Assembly (NCBI GenBank): GCA_965198225.1 | Contig: CBDAOY010000005.1 | Coordinates: 1 to 64,000, forward strand | DNA: 64,000 nucleotides | From: Terriglobia bacterium | GTDB lineage: Bacteria > Acidobacteriota > Terriglobia > 20CM-2-55-15 | Direction: 5' to 3' | Part shown: positions 2,616 to 64,000 of the stretch, in pieces | Layout: each line of letters starts with the position of its first letter | Position numbering within the stretch: position 1 is the stretch's first letter | Position numbers and translations under genes: made by a program | The notes under the pieces: model-generated | What the model saw: the letters and a program-made list of their open reading frames with translations, nothing else | Told to the model about the DNA's origin: nothing | Database searches by the model: none

Positions 2616-3390
2616 TCATACCCTGTGAAATTCAACCACCAGTTCGGGCCCTTCGCCGTAGCTCTCCCCGGCATATCCACCCCAACGATTGGTCACAGTG
2701 AAGCCGTGGTTCTGGATCAAGGAGACGAACTCATCGGGGTAGTAGCAGCGCATCGCGATTGGCAGAATCGTTTCCTCGACCAGCGCGTTCGCTTCGTAAC
2801 GTGCGATAGATCAGTTCCACGTACAGGATCACCCTTTCGGGCTCGAGCCGCGGCCGCCTGTCGTGACAAGTCATCCGCCGCCCATCGACTGTCACCTCCC
2901 ACTCCTGAGTCTCGTTCAAATCGCACCATTCCCGCTTCATTGCCTCGCGCGATCGATTCGGATTGAAGACGTTGAGAATACATGTGCCTCCGGGGGCCAG
3001 GTGCGGCGCCGACGGAACTGAACAGCCCGTCAACCTGAGTGTCGGTCTCGAGGTTCTGAAGGACGCGAAACGGGGCAATCACCAGATTGAACTGACGCCC
3101 CAGGTCGAAGTCTGCGATGTCTCCTGCTTGAATCGGGCTTGCTGGGCTGGGACGCCGCCTTTGCGAAGTTTTTCGCGGCAGATATCGAGCATAGCAGCGG
3201 AGGCGTCGATGCCATGGATATACCGGCAGAATCCAGTCAGCGGGAATGAGAACCCGGCCCGGTGCCGCACCCAAGCTCGAGGACTTCGGCGTCGGGTGAG
3301 GGAATGCGGGCCCGATAGAAGTCGACGTCCGCCGGACGGTCGGGGTTCACGTCGTAGTACTTTGCCGCTGACGCCCTGGGTGTCGTTCAC
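2616..3390 (-). CDS. Class I SAM-dependent methyltransferase, frameshifted
   Basis: Pieces VLELGCGTGR, HGIDASAAML, GDIADFDLGRQFNLVIAPF and HLAPGGTCILNVFNP lie in successive frames. Confidence 0.75.
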
Positions 3391-3833
3391 CCCGATAATC
3401 CACCCGCCGTTGTCCTCGACCGTTTGGTCCGAGGTTTCTGGAGGTCGAAGATGACGAATGAGGGCGCGCGAAGCTCGTTCGCGAGATCCGGATAACGGTC
3501 ACCTTCCTCCTCGTCGGGTTTCGATTCCCGAATTCCCCGGAGTGCGTATCCCAGCGTCGGAAAGCCGTTGACATAGGTCGCGAGCGTCCGATGAAAGTTG
3601 GTGAGCGGGTGTCCCCGGAACTGCATGATGCGGGCCGACTCGTCAAAGTAGTGGTCGACCCGGAAACGCCATCCGAGAGCCGTCTGGGAATCCGTGATGC
3701 GAGAATTCGTAGAGGTCGCCATCGCTGCGAGATTGCAGACCACGAAGCGCCCCCCGGGCTTGATGATGCGGTAAGAAGACATGATTGCAGCTTCGAGATT
3801 CTCGACATCCACCAGGCTGATGTAGCTGATGGC
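3387..3833 (-). pseudogene. C-terminal half of a class I SAM methyltransferase, cut at its 5' side by a group II intron on the opposite strand
   Basis: AISYISLVDVENLEAAIMSSYRIIKPGGRFVV...FHRTLATYVNGF. The reading frame ends abruptly at the intron boundary 3833/3834. Confidence 0.7.
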
Positions 3834-4738
3834 GCGTGCCTGGCAGCACGCGTTTCCGGCGGTTTAAAGTCCCGCTCGGCCGAGGCCACGGGTCGATATC
3901 CAACAAGTGGGGGTAATGCCTCACTGGGCCGAAGTGTAGACAGGTAGTGCAGATGCCTAAACGGGCACGAAAGCGAAAGCCGGATACGGCCAAGGCAAAG
4001 CTGGGAGCCAGCTACGGAAACTTTGGAGGGCAGGGCGCCCACCGCGAGGTGGGTCTGAAGGGCATGAGGAGAACCACCGGGTCGTAATCGACGGGAGCCC
4101 ATCCCGAGGATGAACCGGTCGGCCAAAGATGGGGAATGGTCGAGCCCGCACTATTGGGGCGAAGGCGCATTGGTTCCACCCCATCGCACCAAGGGTGTGT
4201 GCGGGCGACACGGTGGGAGAAGAGACGCGAGTGACCCAGGGAGGCCTGGTATCGTCCGAGCGGAAGGTAAGGTCGAGATGATGTGGCACCCGCAGACGAA
4301 AGGGCGGCACCGAGAGCAAACATCGACCTAGAGCCCTGCGCGGTAGGTGCGGATATAAGCGAGAGCGAAATTCCGGCCGACGCGGTGTCAGGAATCGGAT
4401 CGGGGAATAGTACTCAGGAACGAGACGGCAAACATAAGGTCTCGGATCGTTGCTTCGAGCAGCGGCGCTGGCGGGTCCAAAAGGCCCGTTGGAGGGGGAA
4501 GTCCCCGTACTCAGTCGTGAATGTGCGAGCGAATGGGAAACGCGGAGATATCGTGAACTTGGATAGTTTCCCTTAGCGAAAGACCCAAACGCGGTACGAA
4601 CGAAGCCGCCACCTGCCGCCACACAGCGAATTCCGAACGAGGAGCAACTGAGGAAAGCGGCTTGCGGGGAAAACCGCACGAGCCGTTGATTGAGCGGACG
4701 GTGGAAGGGCCGATCGGCCCGACCACTTTCGACTCTAC
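3834..4738 (+). mobile_element. ORF-less group II intron (copy C)
   Basis: Starts GCGTG; domain V AAGCGGCTTGCGGG(G)AAAACCGCACGAGCCGTT; domain VI ends CGACTCTAC; short ORF-less domain IV closed by CTCAGT/ACTGAG. Near-identical to 62485-63402. Confidence 0.85.
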
Positions 4739-4941
4739 ACTCAGGAACGAGACGGCAAACATAAGGTCTCGGATCGTTGCTCGAGCAGCGGCGCTGGCGG
4801 GTCCAAAAGGCCCGTTGGAGGGGGAAGTCCCCGTACTCAGTCGTGAATGTGCGAGCGATGGGAAACGCGGAGATATCGTGGAATTGGATAGTTCCCTTAG
4901 CGAAAGACCCAAACGCGGTACGAACGAAGCCGCCACCTGCC
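4739..4941 (+). mobile_element. Second partial 3' half of the same ORF-less intron (copy D), truncated by IS256
   Basis: Directly after CTCTAC the sequence restarts at ACTCAGGAACGAG, repeating 4412 onward, and stops at the IS256 left end. Confidence 0.85.
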
Positions 4942-6328
4942 GAGTTATAACCGAATCTGGTGTTTGGGGCGGTTGAAAAAAAGCGGCGTATCTGGTTGAT
5001 TTGTTGTTTACGAGACTTCAAAGCAACCAAAGGAGATACGCCACTATGAGCAAGAGTATCGTTATTGAACGGGAAGATCGAGAAGCGATTGCAGACCCGG
5101 TGACCGATCTGCTACGAGCCGGGGCTCAACAGCTGATCCAACGTGCTGTGGAAGCCGAATTGGCAGAACTGCTATCCCAGCACGGTGATCGACGAACCGA
5201 GACGGGCAACGCCGGGGTGGTGCGGAACGGTTACCTACCTGAACGCGAGCTGCAGACCGGCCTGGGCCCGGTAACGGTGCAAATTCCGAGGTCCGCGCCA
5301 AGACGGGCGAAGCGGTGACGTTCGGTCGGCTCTGGTACCACCCTACATTCGGAAGACGAAGTCGATGGAAGCAGCCGTGCCGTGGTTGTATTTGAAAGGC
5401 GTCTCGAGCGGCGAGATGGGTGACGCCCTAAGAGTTCTTGTCGGTCCGAAGGCGCAGGGCCTGTCAGCGAGCACGGTATCGCGCTTGAAACAGGTCTGGG
5501 CCCAGGAGTACCGCATCGGGTGCGACCAGCGTCTGGACGCCGACCGCTGGGTCTATGTCTGGGCCGACGGCATCTACAGTGGACTTCGGGCCGAACAAAC
5601 CAAGCTGTGTGCGTTGGTCGTGATCGGCGTGAATGAACGCGGAGAGAAGCGTTTTCTGGCGATTGAAGACGGTGTGGCGGGAATCGACACAGAGTTGGCG
5701 CGAGGTGTTGTTGAAGCTGAAGTCGCGCGGGATGAATATTCCGGAATTGGCGATCGGTGACGGTGCGATGGGGTTCTGGGCCGCACTGGAGGAAATCTAT
5801 CCTGAGACACGCCAACAACGCTGCTGGATGCACAAGACCATGAACGTGTTGAACTGCCTACCCAAGTCGGCCCAGGCGAAAGCGAAACAGGCCCTGCATG
5901 CGATCTGGAAGGCCGAGACAAAAGCAGACGCCGAGAAGGCATTCGATCTGTTCATTGAAACCTATGAGCCGAAGTACCCGAAGGCCACTGTCTGCCTGCA
6001 GAAAGACAGAGAAGAACTGCTGGCCTTTTACGATTTCCCGGCCAAGCACTGGCAGAGCATCCGGACGACCAACCCCATTGAGTCGACCTTTGCCACCATT
6101 CGCCACCGGACGAAGCGATCGAAGGGCTGTCTGACACGGGCTGGCATGCTGCACATGATGTTCAAACTGGGGCAGTGTGCCGAGAAGAACTGGCGACGAT
6201 TACGAGGATTCGATGATCTTGCCAAGGTGATTACTGGAGTGAAATTCAACGATGGGATCGAAGTGGACAACCGTCGATCAGGCCGCCGCTTGAATCAATC
6301 TCCTAAACACCACTTTTGACAATAACTC
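4942..6328 (+). mobile_element. IS256-family insertion sequence
   Basis: Imperfect terminal inverted repeats GAGTTATAACCGAATCTGGTGTTTGG and (reverse complement) GAGTTATTGTCAAAAGTGGTGTTTAG flank a transposase gene. Confidence 0.9.
5046..6319 (+). CDS. IS256-family (mutator-like) transposase, frameshifted
   Basis: RNGYLPERELQTGLGPV, YLKGVSSGEM, YVWADG, QRCWMHK and IRTTNPIESTF are spread over three frames. Confidence 0.9.
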
Positions 6329-59440: not shown

Positions 59441-59541
59441 GCCCGCTACTGATTGTCTGTCGCTTCGGGAACTTCGGTCTCCGTCCCCGAATTCCGGACA
59501 CTTGGTGGTCTTATTGCAAATCGCGATATCTGAACAATCCA

Positions 59542-59650
59542 CATTGCAGGTAGCTCATTGGAGATTGCTTCATTTCAGATTTCCGACCAATAAGAAATCG
59601 AGCAGTCTCCAACTTCCAATGCGGATTCGTCCGATGACCAATCTGCAATG
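59542..59650. repeat. AT-richer imperfect inverted-repeat element
   Basis: CATTGCAGGTAGCTCATTGGA / TCCGATGACCAATCTGCAATG; single copy in the window. Confidence 0.5.
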
Positions 59651-59707
59651 CAATGGTTATGGGATGGGGGAGTTCTCGGCGCTCAGTCAGATCGGGTCAG
59701 GGTCGCG

Positions 59708-60623
59708 TCAAGTCGCGGGGACTCCCGAAGGCGCCTCCCACAGCGCGGTGCTCATGTAACGTTCGCCGATGTCGTTGAGGATCGTCACGATGGTTCCCTC
59801 TCCGATCCGTTTGGCGGTTTCATACACACCGTGCAGGTAGGCTCCCGACGACTGGCCGGCGAAGAGGCCGTGTCGGGCCAGCAGCGCGCACATGCGGGCA
59901 GAGTCGTCGCTCGAAACGCAAACCCGGTGGTCGACGACGCTCGTGTCCAGAATCTTCGGAATGATGTCGCCGGGAGACTCGAGCGGCTTCAGACCTTCGA
60001 TACCGGGAAAATCCTCGGGAATGATCTGGACGATTTCGACGCCCGGAACCTCCTTCTTCAGTCGGCGGCCGACTCCGGTCAGTGTGCCTCCTGTCCCGAC
60101 GCCGGCCACGAAATGGGTGACGCGGCCCTCCATCTGGACCAGAATCTCGGCGGCGGTCGTCTCGTAGTGAGCCAGCCAGTTGTTGTCGTTTGAATACTGA
60201 TCGCAGTGGAAGAAGCGATGGCCCTCGGCATCGACGATCCGATGGCTCTCGCGCAGCGCCTCGTCGTAGCCTTCGATCGGATCCGTCTCGATCAGCGTGG
60301 CGCCGTGGGACTGTATACGAAGCTTTCGTTCCTTGCTCGCGTTCCCGGGCACCACGATGTGAACCGGGACCTTCATCATCGCGCCGATCATCGCATAGGC
60401 GATGCCGGCATTGCCGGAGCTCGAGTCGAGCACGGCCCGGCCATCCTCCAGCTCGCCGGCCAGCAGCGCCTCGAGGAGCATCCGTCGAACGGGTCGGTCC
60501 TTGAGGCTTCCGCCAGGATTGGCGTACTCGGCTTTGGCGAATACGCGAACTCCCGGAAACTCCTCTTTGAAGCAGAGTATCTCCACCATCCGGGTGTTCC
60601 CGACCAGGCTCAACGCCGGAAAC
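59708..60623 (-). CDS. PLP-dependent cysteine synthase family protein, 3' exon (5' exon outside window)
   Basis: LVGNTRMV, KAEYANPGGSLKDR, SSSGNAG, GVGTGGT, GQSSGA, DIGERYMST. The upstream part of track ORF 59708-60910 is intron sequence. Confidence 0.9.
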
Positions 60624-62159
60624 ACCGGGTGGCCGGAGGCAGTTGCCCGCCTCCGGCTCCCACAGAACGCAGCGTGCGGATTTCCCGCACTGCGCTCTTC
60701 AGAATTGGATTTACAGCACAGCGAGAGACTGGAACTCCCGATAGCGGAGAGCCAACTTGGGACGCTGTAACGGAAAGTGCAGCTGAATCCGGTTGAATAC
60801 TTCCCACCGGACGAAGCCTGCACGACTACGACTGCTGAGCATTTGGCGCCAGTAACGTTCCACGGCCCGAGCGACGTGCTGCAGAGCCCGGAGGTTCCCG
60901 GCAATGCCATAGTAGGCGTAGTGCCCGCGCAAGACTCGGTTCAGATTGTGCACTTGCTCCCGGACCGGCAAGTGACGCATTCGCCTCATCACGCCGCGTA
61001 GATGAGCCAGACTGCGTCGAAGTCGAGACTTCTCTGTTCGCAGTCCCACTCTAAAATTGCCTTTGCGATTACGCGTACAGTACAGGGTCATGCCCAGAAA
61101 ATAGATCGTCTCTGGACGTTTTCTCCCGCGCCGGACGACATCGCGCTGGGCATAGCGGCCGAATTCGACGAGCTTCGTCTTGGTCGGCTCCGGAACCAGT
61201 CCAAACTTTCCCAGTCGCTTGCGCAGAACGTTCTGGAAACGAAGCGCATCGTCCCGATATTGGAAACACACGACAAAGTCGTCGATGTACCGCACCAGAT
61301 ACGCTTCACCCTTCAGGCGTGGCCGGACCATCCGGTCAAACCACAGGTCAAGCACATAATGCAGGTACAGATTGCTCAGCAGAACGCTGATCGACCCACC
61401 TTGCGGGGTTCCCTCTTCGTTCGAATGCAATTCCCCGTCTTCGAAAACGCCCGCCTTTAACCATCGTCGTATCAGACTGATGATCCGCGGATCTCCGACT
61501 CGATGCTCCACAAAGCGGAGTAGCCATCCATGGTCTAAACTCCCGAAAAAGTTCTTCAAGTCCGCCTCCAACACCCAACTCACCTTGCATCCGGAAATCA
61601 CCTCATGGAGGGTTGCCAGTGCATTGTGGGCGCCCAGCCCAGGCCGGCCACCAAAGGAACAGGGCAAGAAGTCCTGCTCGTAGATGGCGACCAATACCTC
61701 GGCCACGCTGCGCTGAAGGGCCCGATCTTGAACACAGGGCACGCCCAGGGGACGTTTCTCCTGCTTGCCGGGCTTGGGGATATACACCCGCCGAATCGGC
61801 GGAGCGCGATATCCCTTCTGGTGAACAGACTGGAGCATTGGCTCCACCCAGACTCCGAATTCCTCCTTCGCCTCCGGTACCCTCTGACCATCACATCCGG
61901 GAGCCGTGTTGCGGGGCACTTGACACAGGTTCTTCCACACACGCTCTCGGGTGACATGATGCGCCAGTGACGTGAACCGGAGCTTTGGCTCACTCCGAGC
62001 TTTCGCCGCTATTCGTTCCAGTTTCGTTTCCATGACTGGTTGTTCCTCTCGTTGCATAGAGGACCGTATCCTCCCGTTGCATGGAGCTCATGTTTCCCAA
62101 GAACGAGTCCACTTCTGCTGGCCGCTTCCCCATGTGATCGGCTCTCCCGACCTCGGAGT
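60624..62159 (-). mobile_element. RT-encoding group II intron (class E-like), 3' part from mid-domain III to the 3' end
   Basis: Domain V GAGCGCAGTGCGGGAAATCCGCACGCTGCGTTC, domain VI ending CACCCGGT, domain III remainder ACTCCGAGGTCGGGAGAGCCGATCACATGGGGAAG. Confidence 0.9.
60711..62033 (-). CDS. ltrA: Group II intron reverse transcriptase/maturase without an endonuclease domain
   Basis: RFTSLAHH, APGCDG, RVYIPK, RPLGVP, DLKNFF, GTPQGG, RYIDD; domain X LRGHYAYYG. Confidence 0.95.
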   Translation of the reverse strand: METKLERIAAKARSEPKLRFTSLAHHVTRERVWKNLCQVPRNTAPGCDGQRVPEAKEEFGVWVEPMLQSVHQKGYRAPPIRRVYIPKPGKQEKRPLGVPCVQDRALQRSVAEVLVAIYEQDFLPCSFGGRPGLGAHNALATLHEVISGCKVSWVLEADLKNFFGSLDHGWLLRFVEHRVGDPRIISLIRRWLKAGVFEDGELHSNEEGTPQGGSISVLLSNLYLHYVLDLWFDRMVRPRLKGEAYLVRYIDDFVVCFQYRDDALRFQNVLRKRLGKFGLVPEPTKTKLVEFGRYAQRDVVRRGRKRPETIYFLGMTLYCTRNRKGNFRVGLRTEKSRLRRSLAHLRGVMRRMRHLPVREQVHNLNRVLRGHYAYYGIAGNLRALQHVARAVERYWRQMLSSRSRAGFVRWEVFNRIQLHFPLQRPKLALRYREFQSLAVL

Positions 62160-62484
62160 GTAGAGTCGAAAGTGGTCGGGCCGATCGGCCCTTCCACCGT
62201 CCGCTCAATCAAACGGCTCGTGCGGTTTTCCCGCAAGCCGCTTTCCTCAGTTGCTCCTCGTTCGGAATTCGCTGTGTGGCGGCAGGTGGCGGCTTCGTTC
62301 GTACCGCGTTTGGGTCTTTCGCTAAGGGAACTATCCAAGTTCACGATATCTCCGCGTTTCCCATCGCTCGCACATTCACGACTGAGTACGGGGACTTCCC
62401 CCTCCAACGGGCCTTTTGGACCCGCCAGCGCCGCTGCTCGAAGCAACGATCCGAGACCTTATGTTTGCCGTCTCGTTCCTGAGT
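62160..62484 (-). mobile_element. ORF-less group II intron copy A, 3' half (domain III remainder to domain VI)
   Basis: 325-nt repeat of 62485-62809; ends CGACTCTAC directly before the outer intron's ACTCCGAGG. Confidence 0.9.
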
Positions 62485-63402
62485 GTAGAGTCGAAAGTGG
62501 TCGGGCCGATCGGCCCTTCCACCGTCCGCTCAATCAAACGGCTCGTGCGGTTTTCCCGCAAGCCGCTTTCCTCAGTTGCTCCTCGTTCGGAATTCGCTGT
62601 GTGGCGGCAGGTGGCGGCTTCGTTCGTACCGCGTTTGGGTCTTTCGCTAAGGGAACTATCCAAGTTCACGATATCTCCGCGTTTCCCATCGCTCGCACAT
62701 TCACGACTGAGTACGGGGACTTCCCCCTCCAACGGGCCTTTTGGACCCGCCAGCGCCGCTGCTCGAAGCAACGATCCGAGACCTTATGTTTGCCGTCTCG
62801 TTCCTGAGTACTATTCCCCGATCCGATTCCTGACACCGCGTCGGCCGGAATTTCGCTCTCGCTTATATCCGCACCTACCGCGCAGGGCTCTAGGTCGATG
62901 TTTGTCTTCTCGGTTGCCCGCCCTTTCTAGGTCTGCGGGGTGTCTGCGGGTGCCACATCATCTCGACCTTACCTTCCGCTCGGACGATACCAGGCCTCCC
63001 TGGGTCACTCGCGTCTCTTCTCCACCGTGTCGCCCGCACACACCTTGGTGCGATGGGGTGGAACCAATGCGCCTTCGCCCCAATAGTGCGGGCTCGACCA
63101 TTCCCCATCTTTGGCCGACCGGTTCATCCTCGGGATGGCTCCCGTCGATTACGACCCGGTGGTTCTCCTCATGCCCTTCAGACCCCACCTCGCGGTGGGC
63201 GCCCTGCCCTCCAAAGTTTCCGTAGCTGGCTCCAGCTTTGCCTTGGCCGTATCCGGCTTTCGCCTTCGTGCCCGTTTAGGCATCTGCACTACCTGTCTAC
63301 ACTTCGGCCAGTGAGGCATTACCCCCACTTGTTGGATATCGACCCGTGGCCTCGGGCCGAGCGGGACTTTAACCCGCCGGAAACGCGTGCTGCCAGGCAC
63401 GC
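62485..63402 (-). mobile_element. ORF-less group II intron copy B (complete, 918 nt), nested inside copy A
   Basis: GCGTG...CGACTCTAC. Removing it restores GGGAATAGT|ACTCAGG in copy A. Confidence 0.9.
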
Positions 63403-64000
63403 ACTATTCCCCGATCCGATTCCTGACACCGCGTCGGCCGGAATTTCGCTCTCGCTTCCTGACACCGCGTCGGCCGGAATTTCGCTCTCGCTTATATCCG
63501 CACCTACCGCGCAGGGCTCTAGGTCGATGTTTGTCTTCTCGGTTGCCCGCCCTTTCGTCTGCGGGTGCCACATCATCTCGACCTTACCTTCCGCTCGGAC
63601 GATACCAGGCCTCCCTGGGTCACTCGCGTCTCTTCTCCACCGTGTCGCCCGCACACACCTTGGTGCGATGGGGTGGAACCAATGCGCCTTCGCCCCAATA
63701 GTGCGGGCTCGACCATTCCCCATCTTTGGCCGACCGGTTCATCCTCGGGATGGCTCCCGTCGATTACGACCCGGTGGTTCTCCTCATGCCCTTCAGACCC
63801 CACCTCGCGGTGGGCGCCCTGCCCTCCAAAGTTTCCGTAGCTGGCTCCAGCTTTGCCTTGGCCGTATCCGGCTTTCGCCTTCGTGCCCGTTTAGGCATCT
63901 GCACTACCTGTCTACACTTCGGCCAGTGAGGCATTACCCCCACTTGTTGGATATCGACCCGTGGCCTCGGGCCGAGCGGGACTTTAACCCGCCGGCGTGC
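63403..64000 (-). mobile_element. ORF-less group II intron copy A, 5' half (runs off window edge)
   Basis: Repeat of 62810-63390 with a 36-bp internal duplication. Confidence 0.88.

What the first reader, a model, noticed from the sequence alone, without database searches (positions are those of the whole stretch)
59708..64000. Three-layer nested intron in a cysteine synthase gene: an intron parasitising an RT intron at domain III
Seen: on the minus strand the order is A5' - [B complete] - A3' - outer intron (domain III remainder, RT ORF, domains V and VI) - cysteine synthase exon, which resumes at codon position 3. Copy A's 3' end abuts ACUCCGAGGUCGGGAGAGCCGAUCACAUGGGGAAG, the outer intron's domain III, equivalent to ACUCAGG in the ORF-less intron. 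Known: the AUAGUAC...GAAG internal loop of domain III is well conserved among group II introns, and bacterial and archaeal twintrons have been described, often inserted in intron ORFs. Inference: a non-autonomous intron targets a conserved ribozyme motif and may borrow an RT in trans. Host gene expression would need ordered inside-out splicing of three introns. The outer intron's 5' part is outside the window.
Basis: partly seen in the sequence, partly recalled or inferred. Interest (0 to 1): 0.82.

Follow-up and report, generated by a model that had tools for sequence, protein, structure and literature searches.

The report
Intron-hunting intron nested three deep
A cysteine-synthase-type gene is interrupted by three self-splicing (group II) introns nested inside one another, and the inner element belongs to an intron lineage, found in several bacterial phyla, that specialises in inserting into one conserved loop of other introns.

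Summary
On the minus strand, a cysteine-synthase-family gene is split by a 3,790-nt composite (C5/window 64413..60624). The outer RT intron T1 (1,937 nt) carries ORF-less copy A (935 nt) at GAUAGU|AC in its domain III loop. A carries copy B (918 nt) at its own AAUAGU|AC.

Exact ends come from unoccupied sites and from public contigs that join the two exons precisely. Same-genus orthologues are uninterrupted.

New here:
- A and B are ORF-deleted derivatives of a 2.15-kb RT intron, P, with two intact copies elsewhere in the genome.
- In the loci examined, P's RT clade sits almost always at C(A/G)UAGU|A inside other group II introns of several structural types. These loci come from Acidobacteriota, Thermodesulfobacteriota, Pseudomonadota, NC10, Nitrospinota and others.
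- EBS1 (ACUAUG) is complementary to that site and co-varies with it.
- This genome's ORF-less variant has EBS1 ACUAUU, which matches T1 and its own domain III. That explains the self-nesting.

Nested introns that home into other introns are known. I found no report of a lineage homing to a conserved domain III motif. Splicing of this allele is untested.

The parts
59708..60623 (-). 3' exon of a cysteine-synthase-family (PLP-dependent, PALP) gene, stop codon included. Base 60623 (G) completes the Arg codon CG|G.
   Evidence: PF00291 at 207.8 bits. cysM and cysKM models score 262 bits, below their cut-offs. The exon junction is fixed. The exons joined in silico give an intact 323-aa frame.
60624..62159 (-). 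Outer RT intron T1, 3' segment: the rest of domain III (ACUCCGAGG...GGGGAAGCGGCC), domain IV with the ORF, domains V and VI. It ends ...CCACCCGGU.
   Evidence: The 3' end is fixed by empty host sites and by the 3,790-base skip in public contigs. Other copies are 100% identical.
60711..62057 (-). T1 reverse transcriptase/maturase ORF (448 aa, no endonuclease domain detected)
   Evidence: TIGR04416 at 317.2 bits against a 300-bit cut-off; RVT_1 and GIIM.
60624..60699 (-). T1 domains V and VI
   Evidence: RF00029 at 47.1 bits, above the 40-bit gathering score.
62160..62484 (-). ORF-less intron copy A, 3' part (equals B positions 594-918). It starts ACUCAGG and ends CUCUAC.
   Evidence: 100% identical to B 594-918. 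It abuts T1's ACUCCGAGG.
62485..63402 (-). ORF-less intron copy B, complete (918 nt, GCGUG...CUCUAC), inserted in A's domain III loop
   Evidence: The domain V/VI fold has a bulged A 7 nt from the 3' end. Covariation across the lineage supports the fold.
63082..63087 (-). EBS1 of copy B (ACUAUU), complementary to AAUAGU (perfect) and GAUAGU (one G-U pair)
   Evidence: The last base co-varies with position -6 of the flank.
62810..62815 (-). B's own unoccupied target motif AAUAGU, followed by ACUC: the 5' strand of the domain III internal loop
   Evidence: This is the point at which B interrupts A.
62928..62941 (-). 14-nt insertion private to copy B (a partial local repeat)
   Evidence: Contigs in runs X2 and X7 lack these 14 bases (table 4).
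63403..64000 (-). ORF-less intron copy A, 5' part. It continues to 64012 beyond the window and ends GGGGAAUAGU.
   Evidence: It has a 5-nt deletion at element positions 18-22.
63422..63493 (-). 36-nt tandem duplication (two units) private to copy A, just upstream of its domain III

Best explanation
**Structure (shown).** A cysteine-synthase-family gene was hit by a mobile RT-encoding group II intron, T1. T1 is 1,937 nt, starts UUGCG, ends GGU, and sits between CAUGAGCG and GUUUCC.
- T1's domain III internal loop (GAUAGU|AC) holds an ORF-less group II intron, copy A.
- A's own domain III loop (AAUAGU|AC) holds a second copy, B.

**Origin (shown).** A and B are internal-deletion derivatives of an autonomous intron, P. 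P has two intact copies elsewhere in this genome, each with a 415-codon RT.

**Lineage (shown).** P belongs to a compact RT clade. In the loci examined, its members are found almost only inside other group II introns. They sit at C(A/G)UAGU|A, in the loop of the last hairpin domain before domain IV (domain III).

**Mechanism (inferred).** Insertion is by retrohoming. The excised intron RNA recognises the DNA of the host intron's domain III through a 6-bp EBS1-IBS1 pairing (ACUAUG with CAUAGU). The first 3' base is always A. The RT has no endonuclease domain, so cDNA priming would come from a replication fork.

The target is a functionally constrained ribozyme motif shared by several intron classes. 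One intron can therefore parasitise many host families.

In this genome the ORF-less derivative carries EBS1 ACUAUU. That variant fits T1's GAUAGU and its own AAUAGU. This explains why all six T1 copies with an intact 5' half are occupied, and why the element nests in itself.

P's RT would supply mobility and maturase function in trans (inferred).

**Expression (untested).** Making the gene product from this allele would need B, then A, then T1 to be removed in that order. I put this at about 40%.
For: **Exact anatomy.**

**Precise insertion shown by natural empty sites.**
- Host family R: one copy is occupied. Seven copies are unoccupied, and their flanks join with no gap as GGUCAUAGU|AGCCC.
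- Host Z of T1: two unoccupied copies read GAUGAGCG|GCGACUGG.

**Public contigs.** Contigs in X1 (255 letters on the shorter side of the join) and X4 (65 letters) join L109:1124 to L109:4915 and skip exactly 3,790 bases. X7 joins the same exons with a synonymous change.

**Orthologues.** Nine loci from relatives were examined and all nine are uninterrupted. The three same-genus loci read ...EFH(E/D)RYPALSLVGNT. The joined exons here read ...EFHERFPALSLVGNT.

**Parent intron.**

**Ribozyme identity.** The domain V/VI consensus fold has 22 pairs. Eight pairs show compensatory changes, and only two have a single non-pairing sequence. The bulged A lies 7 nt from the 3' end.

**EBS1-IBS1.**
- This genome: 17 of 20 copies are compatible at position -6 (U with A/G, G with C).
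- Other genomes: 23 of 23 are compatible. L086 shows a C-G swap.

**Target in other genomes.**
- 19 of 20 distinct 5' junctions end in UAGU; one ends in UAGG.
- The first 3' base is A at 13 of 13 junctions and 12 of 12.

**The flanks are host introns.**
- Rfam D1-D4 models of five subfamilies hit 150-400 nt upstream in 10 of 18 loci, and host domain V lies downstream in 4.
- A second same-strand RT starts 87-400 nt downstream in 14 of 25 loci, and at 1,484 nt in one more.
- Taking any of these signs together, 20 of 26 loci show a host intron.

**Clade.**
- The 14 domain III homers sit on one side of a branch in the RT tree (support 93/98).
- Only three full-length representatives reach 50% identity or more among 1.84 billion proteins.
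- Relatives at about 41% identity sit after GC hairpins, not in introns.
Against: **No expression or biochemical data.** No RNA evidence of any splicing step exists. No mobility or RT assay exists. All mechanism is inferred from sequence.

**Domain III assignment.** It rests on position (the last hairpin before domain IV and the ORF) and on MFE folds. It does not rest on a curated structural model.
- My crude helix scan found the expected stem-loop at only 15 of 28 sites, against about 7 of 28 with shuffled flanks.
- Rfam's RF00029 does not reach its cut-off on A or B. A sibling copy scores 33.4 bits against 40.

**Exceptions to the target rule.**
- In this genome: one full-length P copy sits after GUAAU; the window copy at 3834 sits after AUGGC in non-intron DNA; three copies mismatch at position -6.
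- In other genomes: 6 of 26 loci show no sign of a host intron (L065, L067, L084, L073, L080, L086).

**Possible defects.** Copy A carries a 5-nt deletion and a 36-nt duplication, and B carries a 14-nt insertion. These might block splicing.

**Sampling bias.** Loci were collected by RT similarity from one genome per species. The sampling is therefore uneven: seven distinct junctions come from one Gammaproteobacteria MAG.
Confidence: 0.85

Rival explanations
1. The nest is a dead end. The composite does not splice, and this allele of the gene is a recent null insertion in a population that still holds the intron-free allele. Sulfur assimilation would be covered by the paralogous PLP enzymes.
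For: - Contigs with the exact intron-free junction and otherwise identical exons exist in X1 and X4. Their depth matches the single-copy flanks: 9.85 against 10.8 in X1, and 14.4 against 17.1 in X4.
- The nine orthologue loci examined in relatives are all uninterrupted.
- T1 copies are 100% identical, so they are very young.
- A and B carry private indels.
- Two paralogues at 36-37% identity exist on C9.
Against: - Both exons are intact and in frame. For a very recent insertion this says little.
- The core motifs of A and B are intact: the 5' end, EBS1, domain V and the branch A.
- The kind of runs X1 and X4 is not on record. The intron-free contig could be spliced RNA.
Confidence: 0.5
2. T1 and its resident ORF-less intron spread together as one composite unit. 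They were not re-invaded independently after each T1 move.
For: - T1 copies are 100% identical.
- The A-type copies inside them are identical in every aligned column.
- All six T1 copies with an intact 5' half are occupied.
Against: - An unspliced inner intron splits T1's domain III. T1 should then be unable to fold and reverse-splice. The review PMC4424553 says the inner intron often has to go first (passages read).
- The resident structures differ from locus to locus: single, XXYY, XYY, truncated.
- The copy in C5:758799 differs by 0.2% and equals an inner copy at another locus.
Confidence: 0.25
3. Insertion happens at the RNA level. The element reverse-splices into host-intron RNA and is fixed by reverse transcription and recombination, not by DNA-target retrohoming.
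For: - The target is a motif exposed in an RNA loop.
- Host introns are transcribed and probably abundant as excised RNA.
Against: - No datum here separates the two routes.
- DNA retrohoming is the established route for bacterial introns with En-minus RTs (review PMC4424553, passages read).
- In folded host RNA, the loop would be engaged in tertiary contacts.
Confidence: 0.12
4. Assembly artefact: repeats wrongly threaded through the gene.
For: - All three elements are multi-copy.
- Short-read contigs break at their borders.
Against: - Base-exact nested junctions recur at independent loci (C6:840163, C8:158737).
- A and B differ by private indels.
- The genome is in nine contigs.
- The 3,790-nt insert equals T1 + A + B exactly.
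- The same architecture is seen in other phyla.
Confidence: 0.03

Closest known systems
Nested group II introns of Methanosarcina acetivorans (Dai & Zimmerly 2003, RNA 9:14). I saw only how it is described in the review PMC4424553 and in PMC2882425. The paper itself is not held.
   Same: - ORF-less and RT-encoding introns home site-specifically into other group II introns.
- Nests reach up to five layers.
- Nests are eroded by homologous recombination. Here the XXY and XYY forms look like such decay.
   Different: - There, by the paper's title, homing is into related intron ORFs, and the flanking exons hold no coding gene.
- Here the site is a conserved ribozyme motif in domain III.
- Hosts here belong to several unrelated structural types, and the trait is shared by an RT clade across phyla.
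- One nest here sits in a housekeeping-type gene.
Thermosynechococcus elongatus twintrons and trans-mobilised ORF-less introns (Mohr, Ghanem & Lambowitz 2010, PMC2882425; passages read)
   Same: - Many intron copies per genome.
- ORF-less derivatives with the same kind of ORF deletion, mobilised by RTs of related introns.
- Target specificity diverges through EBS changes.
- Insertion into other mobile introns.
- T1's 5' U has a precedent in TeI4h.
   Different: - There the inner intron inserts in domain IV, between two start codons of the host RT ORF, and only in closely related introns.
- Here the site is in domain III, and the hosts are diverse.
Trichodesmium erythraeum twintron in Tery_4732 (Pfreundt & Hess 2015, PMC4649490; passages read)
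   Same: - A bacterial twintron inside a conserved protein-coding gene.
- Splicing is sequential, inner intron first, and this was shown experimentally.
   Different: - Two layers, and both introns encode ORFs.
- The inner intron lies in domain I.
- It is a single locus, not a homing lineage.
Class C (IIC) introns that home to a structural motif such as terminators or attC (PMC3001079 seen in a search listing only; otherwise my own knowledge)
   Same: - En-minus RT.
- The target is defined by a short IBS1 plus a recurrent structured motif, not by one gene.
- The nearest relatives outside the clade in my scan (about 41% identity) behave this way.
   Different: - P has a full-size domain I-III of about 740 nt.
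- Its target is a loop of another ribozyme, not a hairpin in ordinary DNA.

Membership tests
Group II intron (inner ORF-less element, copies A and B) | 5' GUGYG-type start and 3' AY end | tested here: met
   The element is GCGUG...CUCUAC, with C at position 2. Lineage relatives start GUGUG or GUGCG and end UAC or GAC.
Group II intron (inner ORF-less element, copies A and B) | Domain V hairpin (AGC triad, 2-nt bulge) and domain VI with a bulged A 7-8 nt from the 3' end | tested here: met
   MFE fold. The alignment fold of 17 lineage members has 22 pairs, 8 with compensatory changes.
Group II intron (inner ORF-less element, copies A and B) | Reaches Rfam RF00029 gathering score | tested here: not met
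   B is not listed at gathering threshold. A sibling copy at 4653-4738 scores 33.4 bits against 40. Three lineage relatives do pass at 40.2-41.4 bits.
Group II intron (inner ORF-less element, copies A and B) | EBS1-IBS1 pairing that defines the 5' splice and insertion site | tested here: met
   ACUAUU, ACUAUG and ACUAUC pair with (A/G), C and G at position -6. 17 of 20 own copies and 23 of 23 relatives are compatible.
Group II intron (inner ORF-less element, copies A and B) | Intron-encoded RT/maturase | tested here: not met
   A and B have no ORF. The parent P has one: TIGR04416 at 392.2 bits against 300, with 415 codons intact in both copies.
Group II intron (inner ORF-less element, copies A and B) | Demonstrated self-splicing or mobility | not testable with these tools
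   No RNA run is available. Precise insertions next to empty sites are indirect evidence of past mobility.
Group II intron (outer intron T1) | Domain V/VI and an RT/maturase above curated cut-offs | tested here: met
   RF00029 at 47.1 bits against 40. TIGR04416 at 317.2 bits against 300.
Group II intron (outer intron T1) | Canonical GUGYG 5' end | tested here: not met
   It starts UUGCG, with U at position 1. This is fixed by the empty sites. A 5' T is reported for TeI4h (PMC2882425).
Twintron / nested intron array | One intron lies inside another through a precise insertion event | tested here: met
   Removing B restores A's AAUAGUACUC. Removing A restores the loop GAUAGUACUCC in T1. Removing T1 restores the gene.
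M. acetivorans-type homing into intron ORFs | The homing site lies in the RT ORF of a related intron | tested here: not met
   The site is 102 nt upstream of the T1 ORF, in a ribozyme hairpin. Host RTs start 87-400 nt downstream in 14 of 25 loci, and at 1,484 nt in one more.
Cysteine synthase (CysK/CysM) | PLP-dependent PALP fold; NCBIfam equivalog score | tested here: inconclusive
   PF00291 at 207.8 bits. cysM scores 262.4 against 394.2 and cysKM 261.8 against 344.15, both below cut-off. These scores are for the 304-aa 3' exon alone.

The most novel reading that the evidence does not exclude
The P clade is a dedicated hyperparasite of group II introns. Its homing site is a functionally constrained loop of the host ribozyme's domain III. 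One intron lineage can therefore invade many intron classes across phyla. A host cannot easily escape by mutation without damaging itself.

The clade's own domain III avoids a perfect site: 0 of 15 relatives have C at position -6 with UAGU. A single EBS1 change in an ORF-less derivative broke that self-avoidance in this genome. The result is runaway self-nesting and, together with intron Z, four-layer intron stacks.
Probability: 0.6. Interest if true: 0.85.

Novelty: new variant of a known kind. Interest (0 to 1): 0.78.

Why it matters
Twintrons are usually treated as rare accidents, or as homing into a sister intron's ORF. Here a whole intron lineage uses a conserved catalytic-support motif of other introns as its address.

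- **A second trophic level.** Introns become parasites of introns. The genome holds at least three nested tiers, and four where intron Z is the outermost layer.
- **Evolvability of targeting.** A single-base EBS1 change appears to retarget a non-autonomous element to new hosts and to itself.
- **A limit on host escape.** The target sits in a functionally constrained loop, so a host cannot easily mutate away from it.
- **A natural test case.** The nest in a housekeeping-type gene poses the question of ordered multi-step splicing in bacteria directly.
- **A model for proliferation.** The system bears on how introns could multiply inside non-essential intron DNA, a theme in models of intron expansion.
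- **A practical lead.** The short, defined target rule could inform tools that aim specifically at group II introns.

Tried and rejected
- **Rfam D1-D4 models on copy B.** They gave only sub-threshold partial hits (24.5 and 15 bits). They could not annotate domain III.
- **Crude stem search around the site.** It passed 15 of 28 sites against about 7 of 28 with shuffled 3' flanks. My 3' coordinates for nine distant loci were one base off in that call. I treat it as weak and rely on position, folds and host-intron markers instead.
- **Outer-intron boundaries.** I first took them to be AUGAGCG...GGUG or GAGCG... from copy comparison. I rejected this after the orthologue comparison and the empty sites.
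- **C5:817039-818770.** It looked like an unoccupied T1-like copy. It is a deleted fragment, not an empty site.
- **DNA search for the element in 29 relatives.** It found only a 77-83% relative in G026 and a fragment in G015. It found nothing in the three same-genus genomes searched.
- **Sequencing runs.** No RNA holder is listed, so expression could not be addressed.
  - X2 record 8 runs only 29 letters from exon 2 into the intron. That is under the tool's 31-letter rule, so I do not count it as bridging.
  - Parts of the nest without contig cover in some runs are not interpreted.
- **Literature.** Seven searches and passages of eight papers gave no report of homing into domain III.
  - Dai & Zimmerly 2003 and Simon et al. 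2008 are not held.
The supplementary structure figures of PMC4649490 and PMC2882425 and the Zimmerly intron database could hold relevant cases that I could not see.
- **The search of earlier findings.** It was closed.

Full report
**1. What is in the sequence**

The window is G000:C5:1-64000, so window and contig coordinates coincide. The order below is on the minus strand.

| Part | Coordinates | Notes |
|---|---|---|
| 5' exon | 64469..64414 | 56 nt, MNLAATIPVEESYVEFHE + CG |
| Outer intron T1, 5' part | 64413..64013 | 401 nt, UUGCGCC...GGCUGAUAGU |
| ORF-less copy A, 5' part | 64012..63403 | |
| Copy B, complete | 63402..62485 | 918 nt, GCGUG...CUCUAC |
| Copy A, 3' part | 62484..62160 | 100% identical to B 594-918 |
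| T1 remainder | 62159..60624 | ACUCCGAGG..., RT ORF, domains V/VI |
| 3' exon | 60623..59708 | |

- T1 is 1,937 nt, A is 935 nt and B is 918 nt. Together they make 3,790 nt.
- B's own uninterrupted site reads GGGGAAUAGU|ACUCAGG, and no other cut point reproduces it.

**2. Exact ends of the outer intron, and the state of the gene**

Copy comparison alone was ambiguous. Three independent lines fix the ends.

- **Orthologues.** Nine loci from relatives are uninterrupted. The three same-genus loci read ...EFH(E/D)RYPALSLVGNT.
- **Empty sites.** T1's other copies lie between domains V and VI of another RT intron, Z. Two unoccupied Z copies read GAUGAGCG|GCGACUGG. T1 is therefore UUGCG...CCACCCGGU, and the gene junction is CAU GAG CG|G UUU CCG (H-E-R-F-P).
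- **Public contigs.** Contigs of runs X1 and X4 join L109:1124 to L109:4915, which is C5:60623 to C5:64414. They skip exactly 3,790 bases and show no other difference. X7, a variant strain, joins the same exons with a synonymous GAG>GAA change.

The kind of these runs is not on record. The contig depth equals that of the single-copy flanks. I read the intron-free form as more likely a DNA allele than spliced RNA, but I cannot tell.

The exons joined in silico give an intact 323-aa frame. The 3' exon is a PALP enzyme closest to the cysM/cysK models but below their cut-offs.

**3. What the inner element is**

A blastn search of B against the genome gives 33 pieces at 18 loci.

- At two loci (C5:501714-503866 and C6:343788-345941) an RT ORF sits between element positions 809 and 812.
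- These 2,153/2,154-nt copies (P) align with B end to end.
- Each carries an intact 415-codon RT/maturase: TIGR04416 at 392 bits against a 300-bit cut-off.
- The deletion in the ORF-less form runs from the start codon to just past the stop, so the domain IV stub upstream is kept.

The ribozyme features are as follows.

- The MFE fold of B shows a 34-nt domain V with a 2-nt bulge. It also shows a domain VI whose bulged A lies 7 nt from the 3' end.
- An alignment of 17 lineage members gives 22 consensus pairs. Eight show compensatory changes, and only two have a single non-pairing sequence.
- Rfam RF00029 itself stays below cut-off on these copies.

**4. The target rule in this genome**

The element's true 5' end is present at 16 loci. 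Of these, 14 follow UAGU, one follows UAAU and one follows UGGC. The first downstream base is A.

The flanks belong to several different intron families.

- **T1:** all 6 copies with an intact 5' half are occupied.
- **Family R:** 1 of 8 copies is occupied. In the 7 empty copies the flanks join with no gap as GGUCAUAGU|AGCCC.
- **The family at C6:1004374:** the occupied copy has CAUAGU. Three related empty copies have CAUACU.
- **Others:** family Q, the host of P at C5:501714, and the element itself.

Folds of T1 (nest removed in silico) and of an empty R copy place the site in the 5' strand of an internal loop. The loop is AUAGUA opposite (G)AAG. It lies in the last hairpin before domain IV and the ORF. 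By position this is domain III. A passage in PMC4476101 notes that domain III contributes stacked adenosines that support domain V, which would explain why the loop is conserved.

**5. How the site is recognised**

A loop in domain I reads GCCCGC-ACUAUU-GGGGCG in most ORF-less copies. It reads ACUAUG in both full-length P copies and in three ORF-less copies.

- ACUAUU pairs with AAUAGU, and with GAUAGU through one G-U pair.
- ACUAUG pairs with CAUAGU.
- 17 of 20 copies are compatible with their own flank at position -6.
- All four inner, self-nested copies carry the U variant.
- The only occupant of family R (CAUAGU) carries the G variant.

Positions -7 to -12 differ among hosts. A conserved EBS2-IBS2 pairing is therefore unlikely, and I did not find one.

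**6. The same habit in other phyla**

A scan of one genome per species with P's RT returned 44 loci. They come from Terriglobia, Desulfobacterales and other delta-type MAGs, Alphaproteobacteria, Gammaproteobacteria, NC10, Nitrospinota, Neomarinimicrobiota, Ignavibacteriaceae and a Desulforhopalus isolate.

| Test | Result |
|---|---|
| Distinct 5' junctions ending in UAGU | 19 of 20 (one ends UAGG) |
| First 3' base is A | 13 of 13, and 12 of 12 |
| EBS1 sequence | ACUAUG in 22 of 23 |
| Base at position -6 | C in 21, U in 1 |
| L086 | EBS1 ACUAUC, with G at -6 (compensatory) |

The flanks are host introns.

- Rfam D1-D4 models of five subfamilies (-1, -2, -3, -4, -6) score 66-172 bits in 10 of 18 loci. 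One weaker D1D4-1 hit scores 44.8 bits. The hits lie 150-400 nt upstream of the insertion.
- A host domain V lies downstream in four loci.
- A second same-strand RT starts 87-400 nt downstream in 14 of 25 loci, and at 1,484 nt in one more.
- Taking any of these signs, 20 of 26 loci show a host intron. Six do not: L065, L067, L084, L073, L080 and L086.

The clade is compact.

- In an RT tree of 22 rows, the 14 homers lie on one side of a branch (support 93/98, and 94% of bootstrap trees). Four rows (L090, L094, L099, L102) were dropped because my plain translation met stops. L073 and L085 are labelled by lineage only, because their 5' flanks are cut off.
- Relatives at about 41% identity, from Verrucomicrobia, sit after GC-rich hairpins in ordinary DNA.
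- Among 1.84 billion representative proteins, only three full-length ones reach 50% identity or more (81, 58 and 50%). The next is at 44%.

**7. Self-avoidance and its loss**

An own domain III motif could be identified in 15 relatives.

- Eight read AAUAGU, which mismatches their EBS1 G at position -6.
- Seven lack UAGU altogether.
- None has C at position -6 with UAGU.

In this genome the G-to-U change in EBS1 of the ORF-less derivative makes its own AAUAGU a perfect site.

- Three intact self-nests exist: the cysteine synthase locus, C6:840163 and C8:158737.
- Decayed forms also exist: XXY at C4:150750, XYY at C5:812868, and window 3834-4942.
- These are the forms expected if direct repeats recombine. 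The review PMC4424553 describes this for M. acetivorans.

**8. State of this particular nest**

A and B are identical in every aligned column.

- A has a 5-nt deletion at element positions 18-22 and a 36-nt tandem duplication at 63493..63422.
- B has a 14-nt insertion at 62941..62928. Contigs of two other runs lack it.
- EBS1, the 5' ends, domain V and the branch A are intact in both.

Whether A still splices is open. If it does not, T1 cannot refold and this allele is null.

**9. Comparison with what is known**

- Twintrons, trans-mobilised ORF-less introns, nested arrays and homing into other introns are established (PMC4424553, PMC2882425, PMC4649490; passages read).
- The reported sites are the host RT ORF (M. 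acetivorans), domain IV between two start codons (T. elongatus) and domain I (Trichodesmium).
- Seven full-text searches found no description of a lineage homing to a conserved domain III motif across intron classes.
- Two key older papers and all supplements were out of reach, so prior mention cannot be excluded.

**10. Verdict**

The finding generalises to a clade-wide target rule backed by compensatory evidence. I class it as a new variant of a known kind. Expression of the interrupted gene, trans-mobilisation by P's RT, and the DNA-versus-RNA route of insertion remain inferences.

Noticed in passing
window 3834-4942 (+): A second copy of the ORF-less intron (3834-4738) is followed directly by a partial repeat of its 3' part (element positions 594-798). 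The 5' flank ends AUGGC and is not intron-like. The copy lies antisense to a truncated ORF at 3387-3812. It looks like a decayed self-nest that was moved or cut by rearrangement.
   Followed up: partly
G000 C6:839555-843712; also C5:606919, C5:812460, C5:760174: The outer intron T1 normally sits between domain V and domain VI of another RT intron, Z, at GAUGAGCG|GCGACUGG. These loci are therefore four-layer stacks (Z > T1 > A > B, or decayed forms of that). The cysteine synthase site shares AUGAGCG|G with that home site and looks like an off-target hit.
   Followed up: partly
G000 C4:150285-153772 and C5:889500-892400: These are chimeric hosts. The 5' half (ending GGCCCGUAGU) is unrelated to T1's 5' half, and it follows directly after the 3' end of yet another intron. 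After the ORF-less element, the 3' half is 100% T1. This suggests recombination between element copies that reside in different host introns.
   Followed up: partly
G000 C6:296560-296680, C8:79130-79250, C5:569865-569985: Three unoccupied relatives of the host at C6:1004374 read CAUACUAC where the occupied copy reads CAUAGUAC. This may be a target-site change that confers immunity.
   Followed up: no
L109:1-174 (C5/window 59500-59673): The stretch just downstream of the gene's stop codon has 9- to 19-fold higher contig depth than the gene in all four runs laid. It is probably a small dispersed repeat.
   Followed up: no
whole genome G000: The intron load is unusually high. There are 32 RF00029 matches, 24 of them over the cut-off. 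There are 35 tblastn pieces to one RT query, from at least seven RT families. PMC8919778 (passage read) says bacterial counts rarely exceed 10.
   Followed up: partly
window 5633-6319 (+): A 228-aa ORF beside the second intron copy looks like a transposase fragment. This is from my own recognition; I ran no search.
   Followed up: no
G000 C8:158737-160383: A third intact self-nest (XXYY) sits after AGUAGU in a flank that I could not identify as an intron. The 5' flank is itself a dispersed repeat, about 80% identical to five other loci.
   Followed up: no
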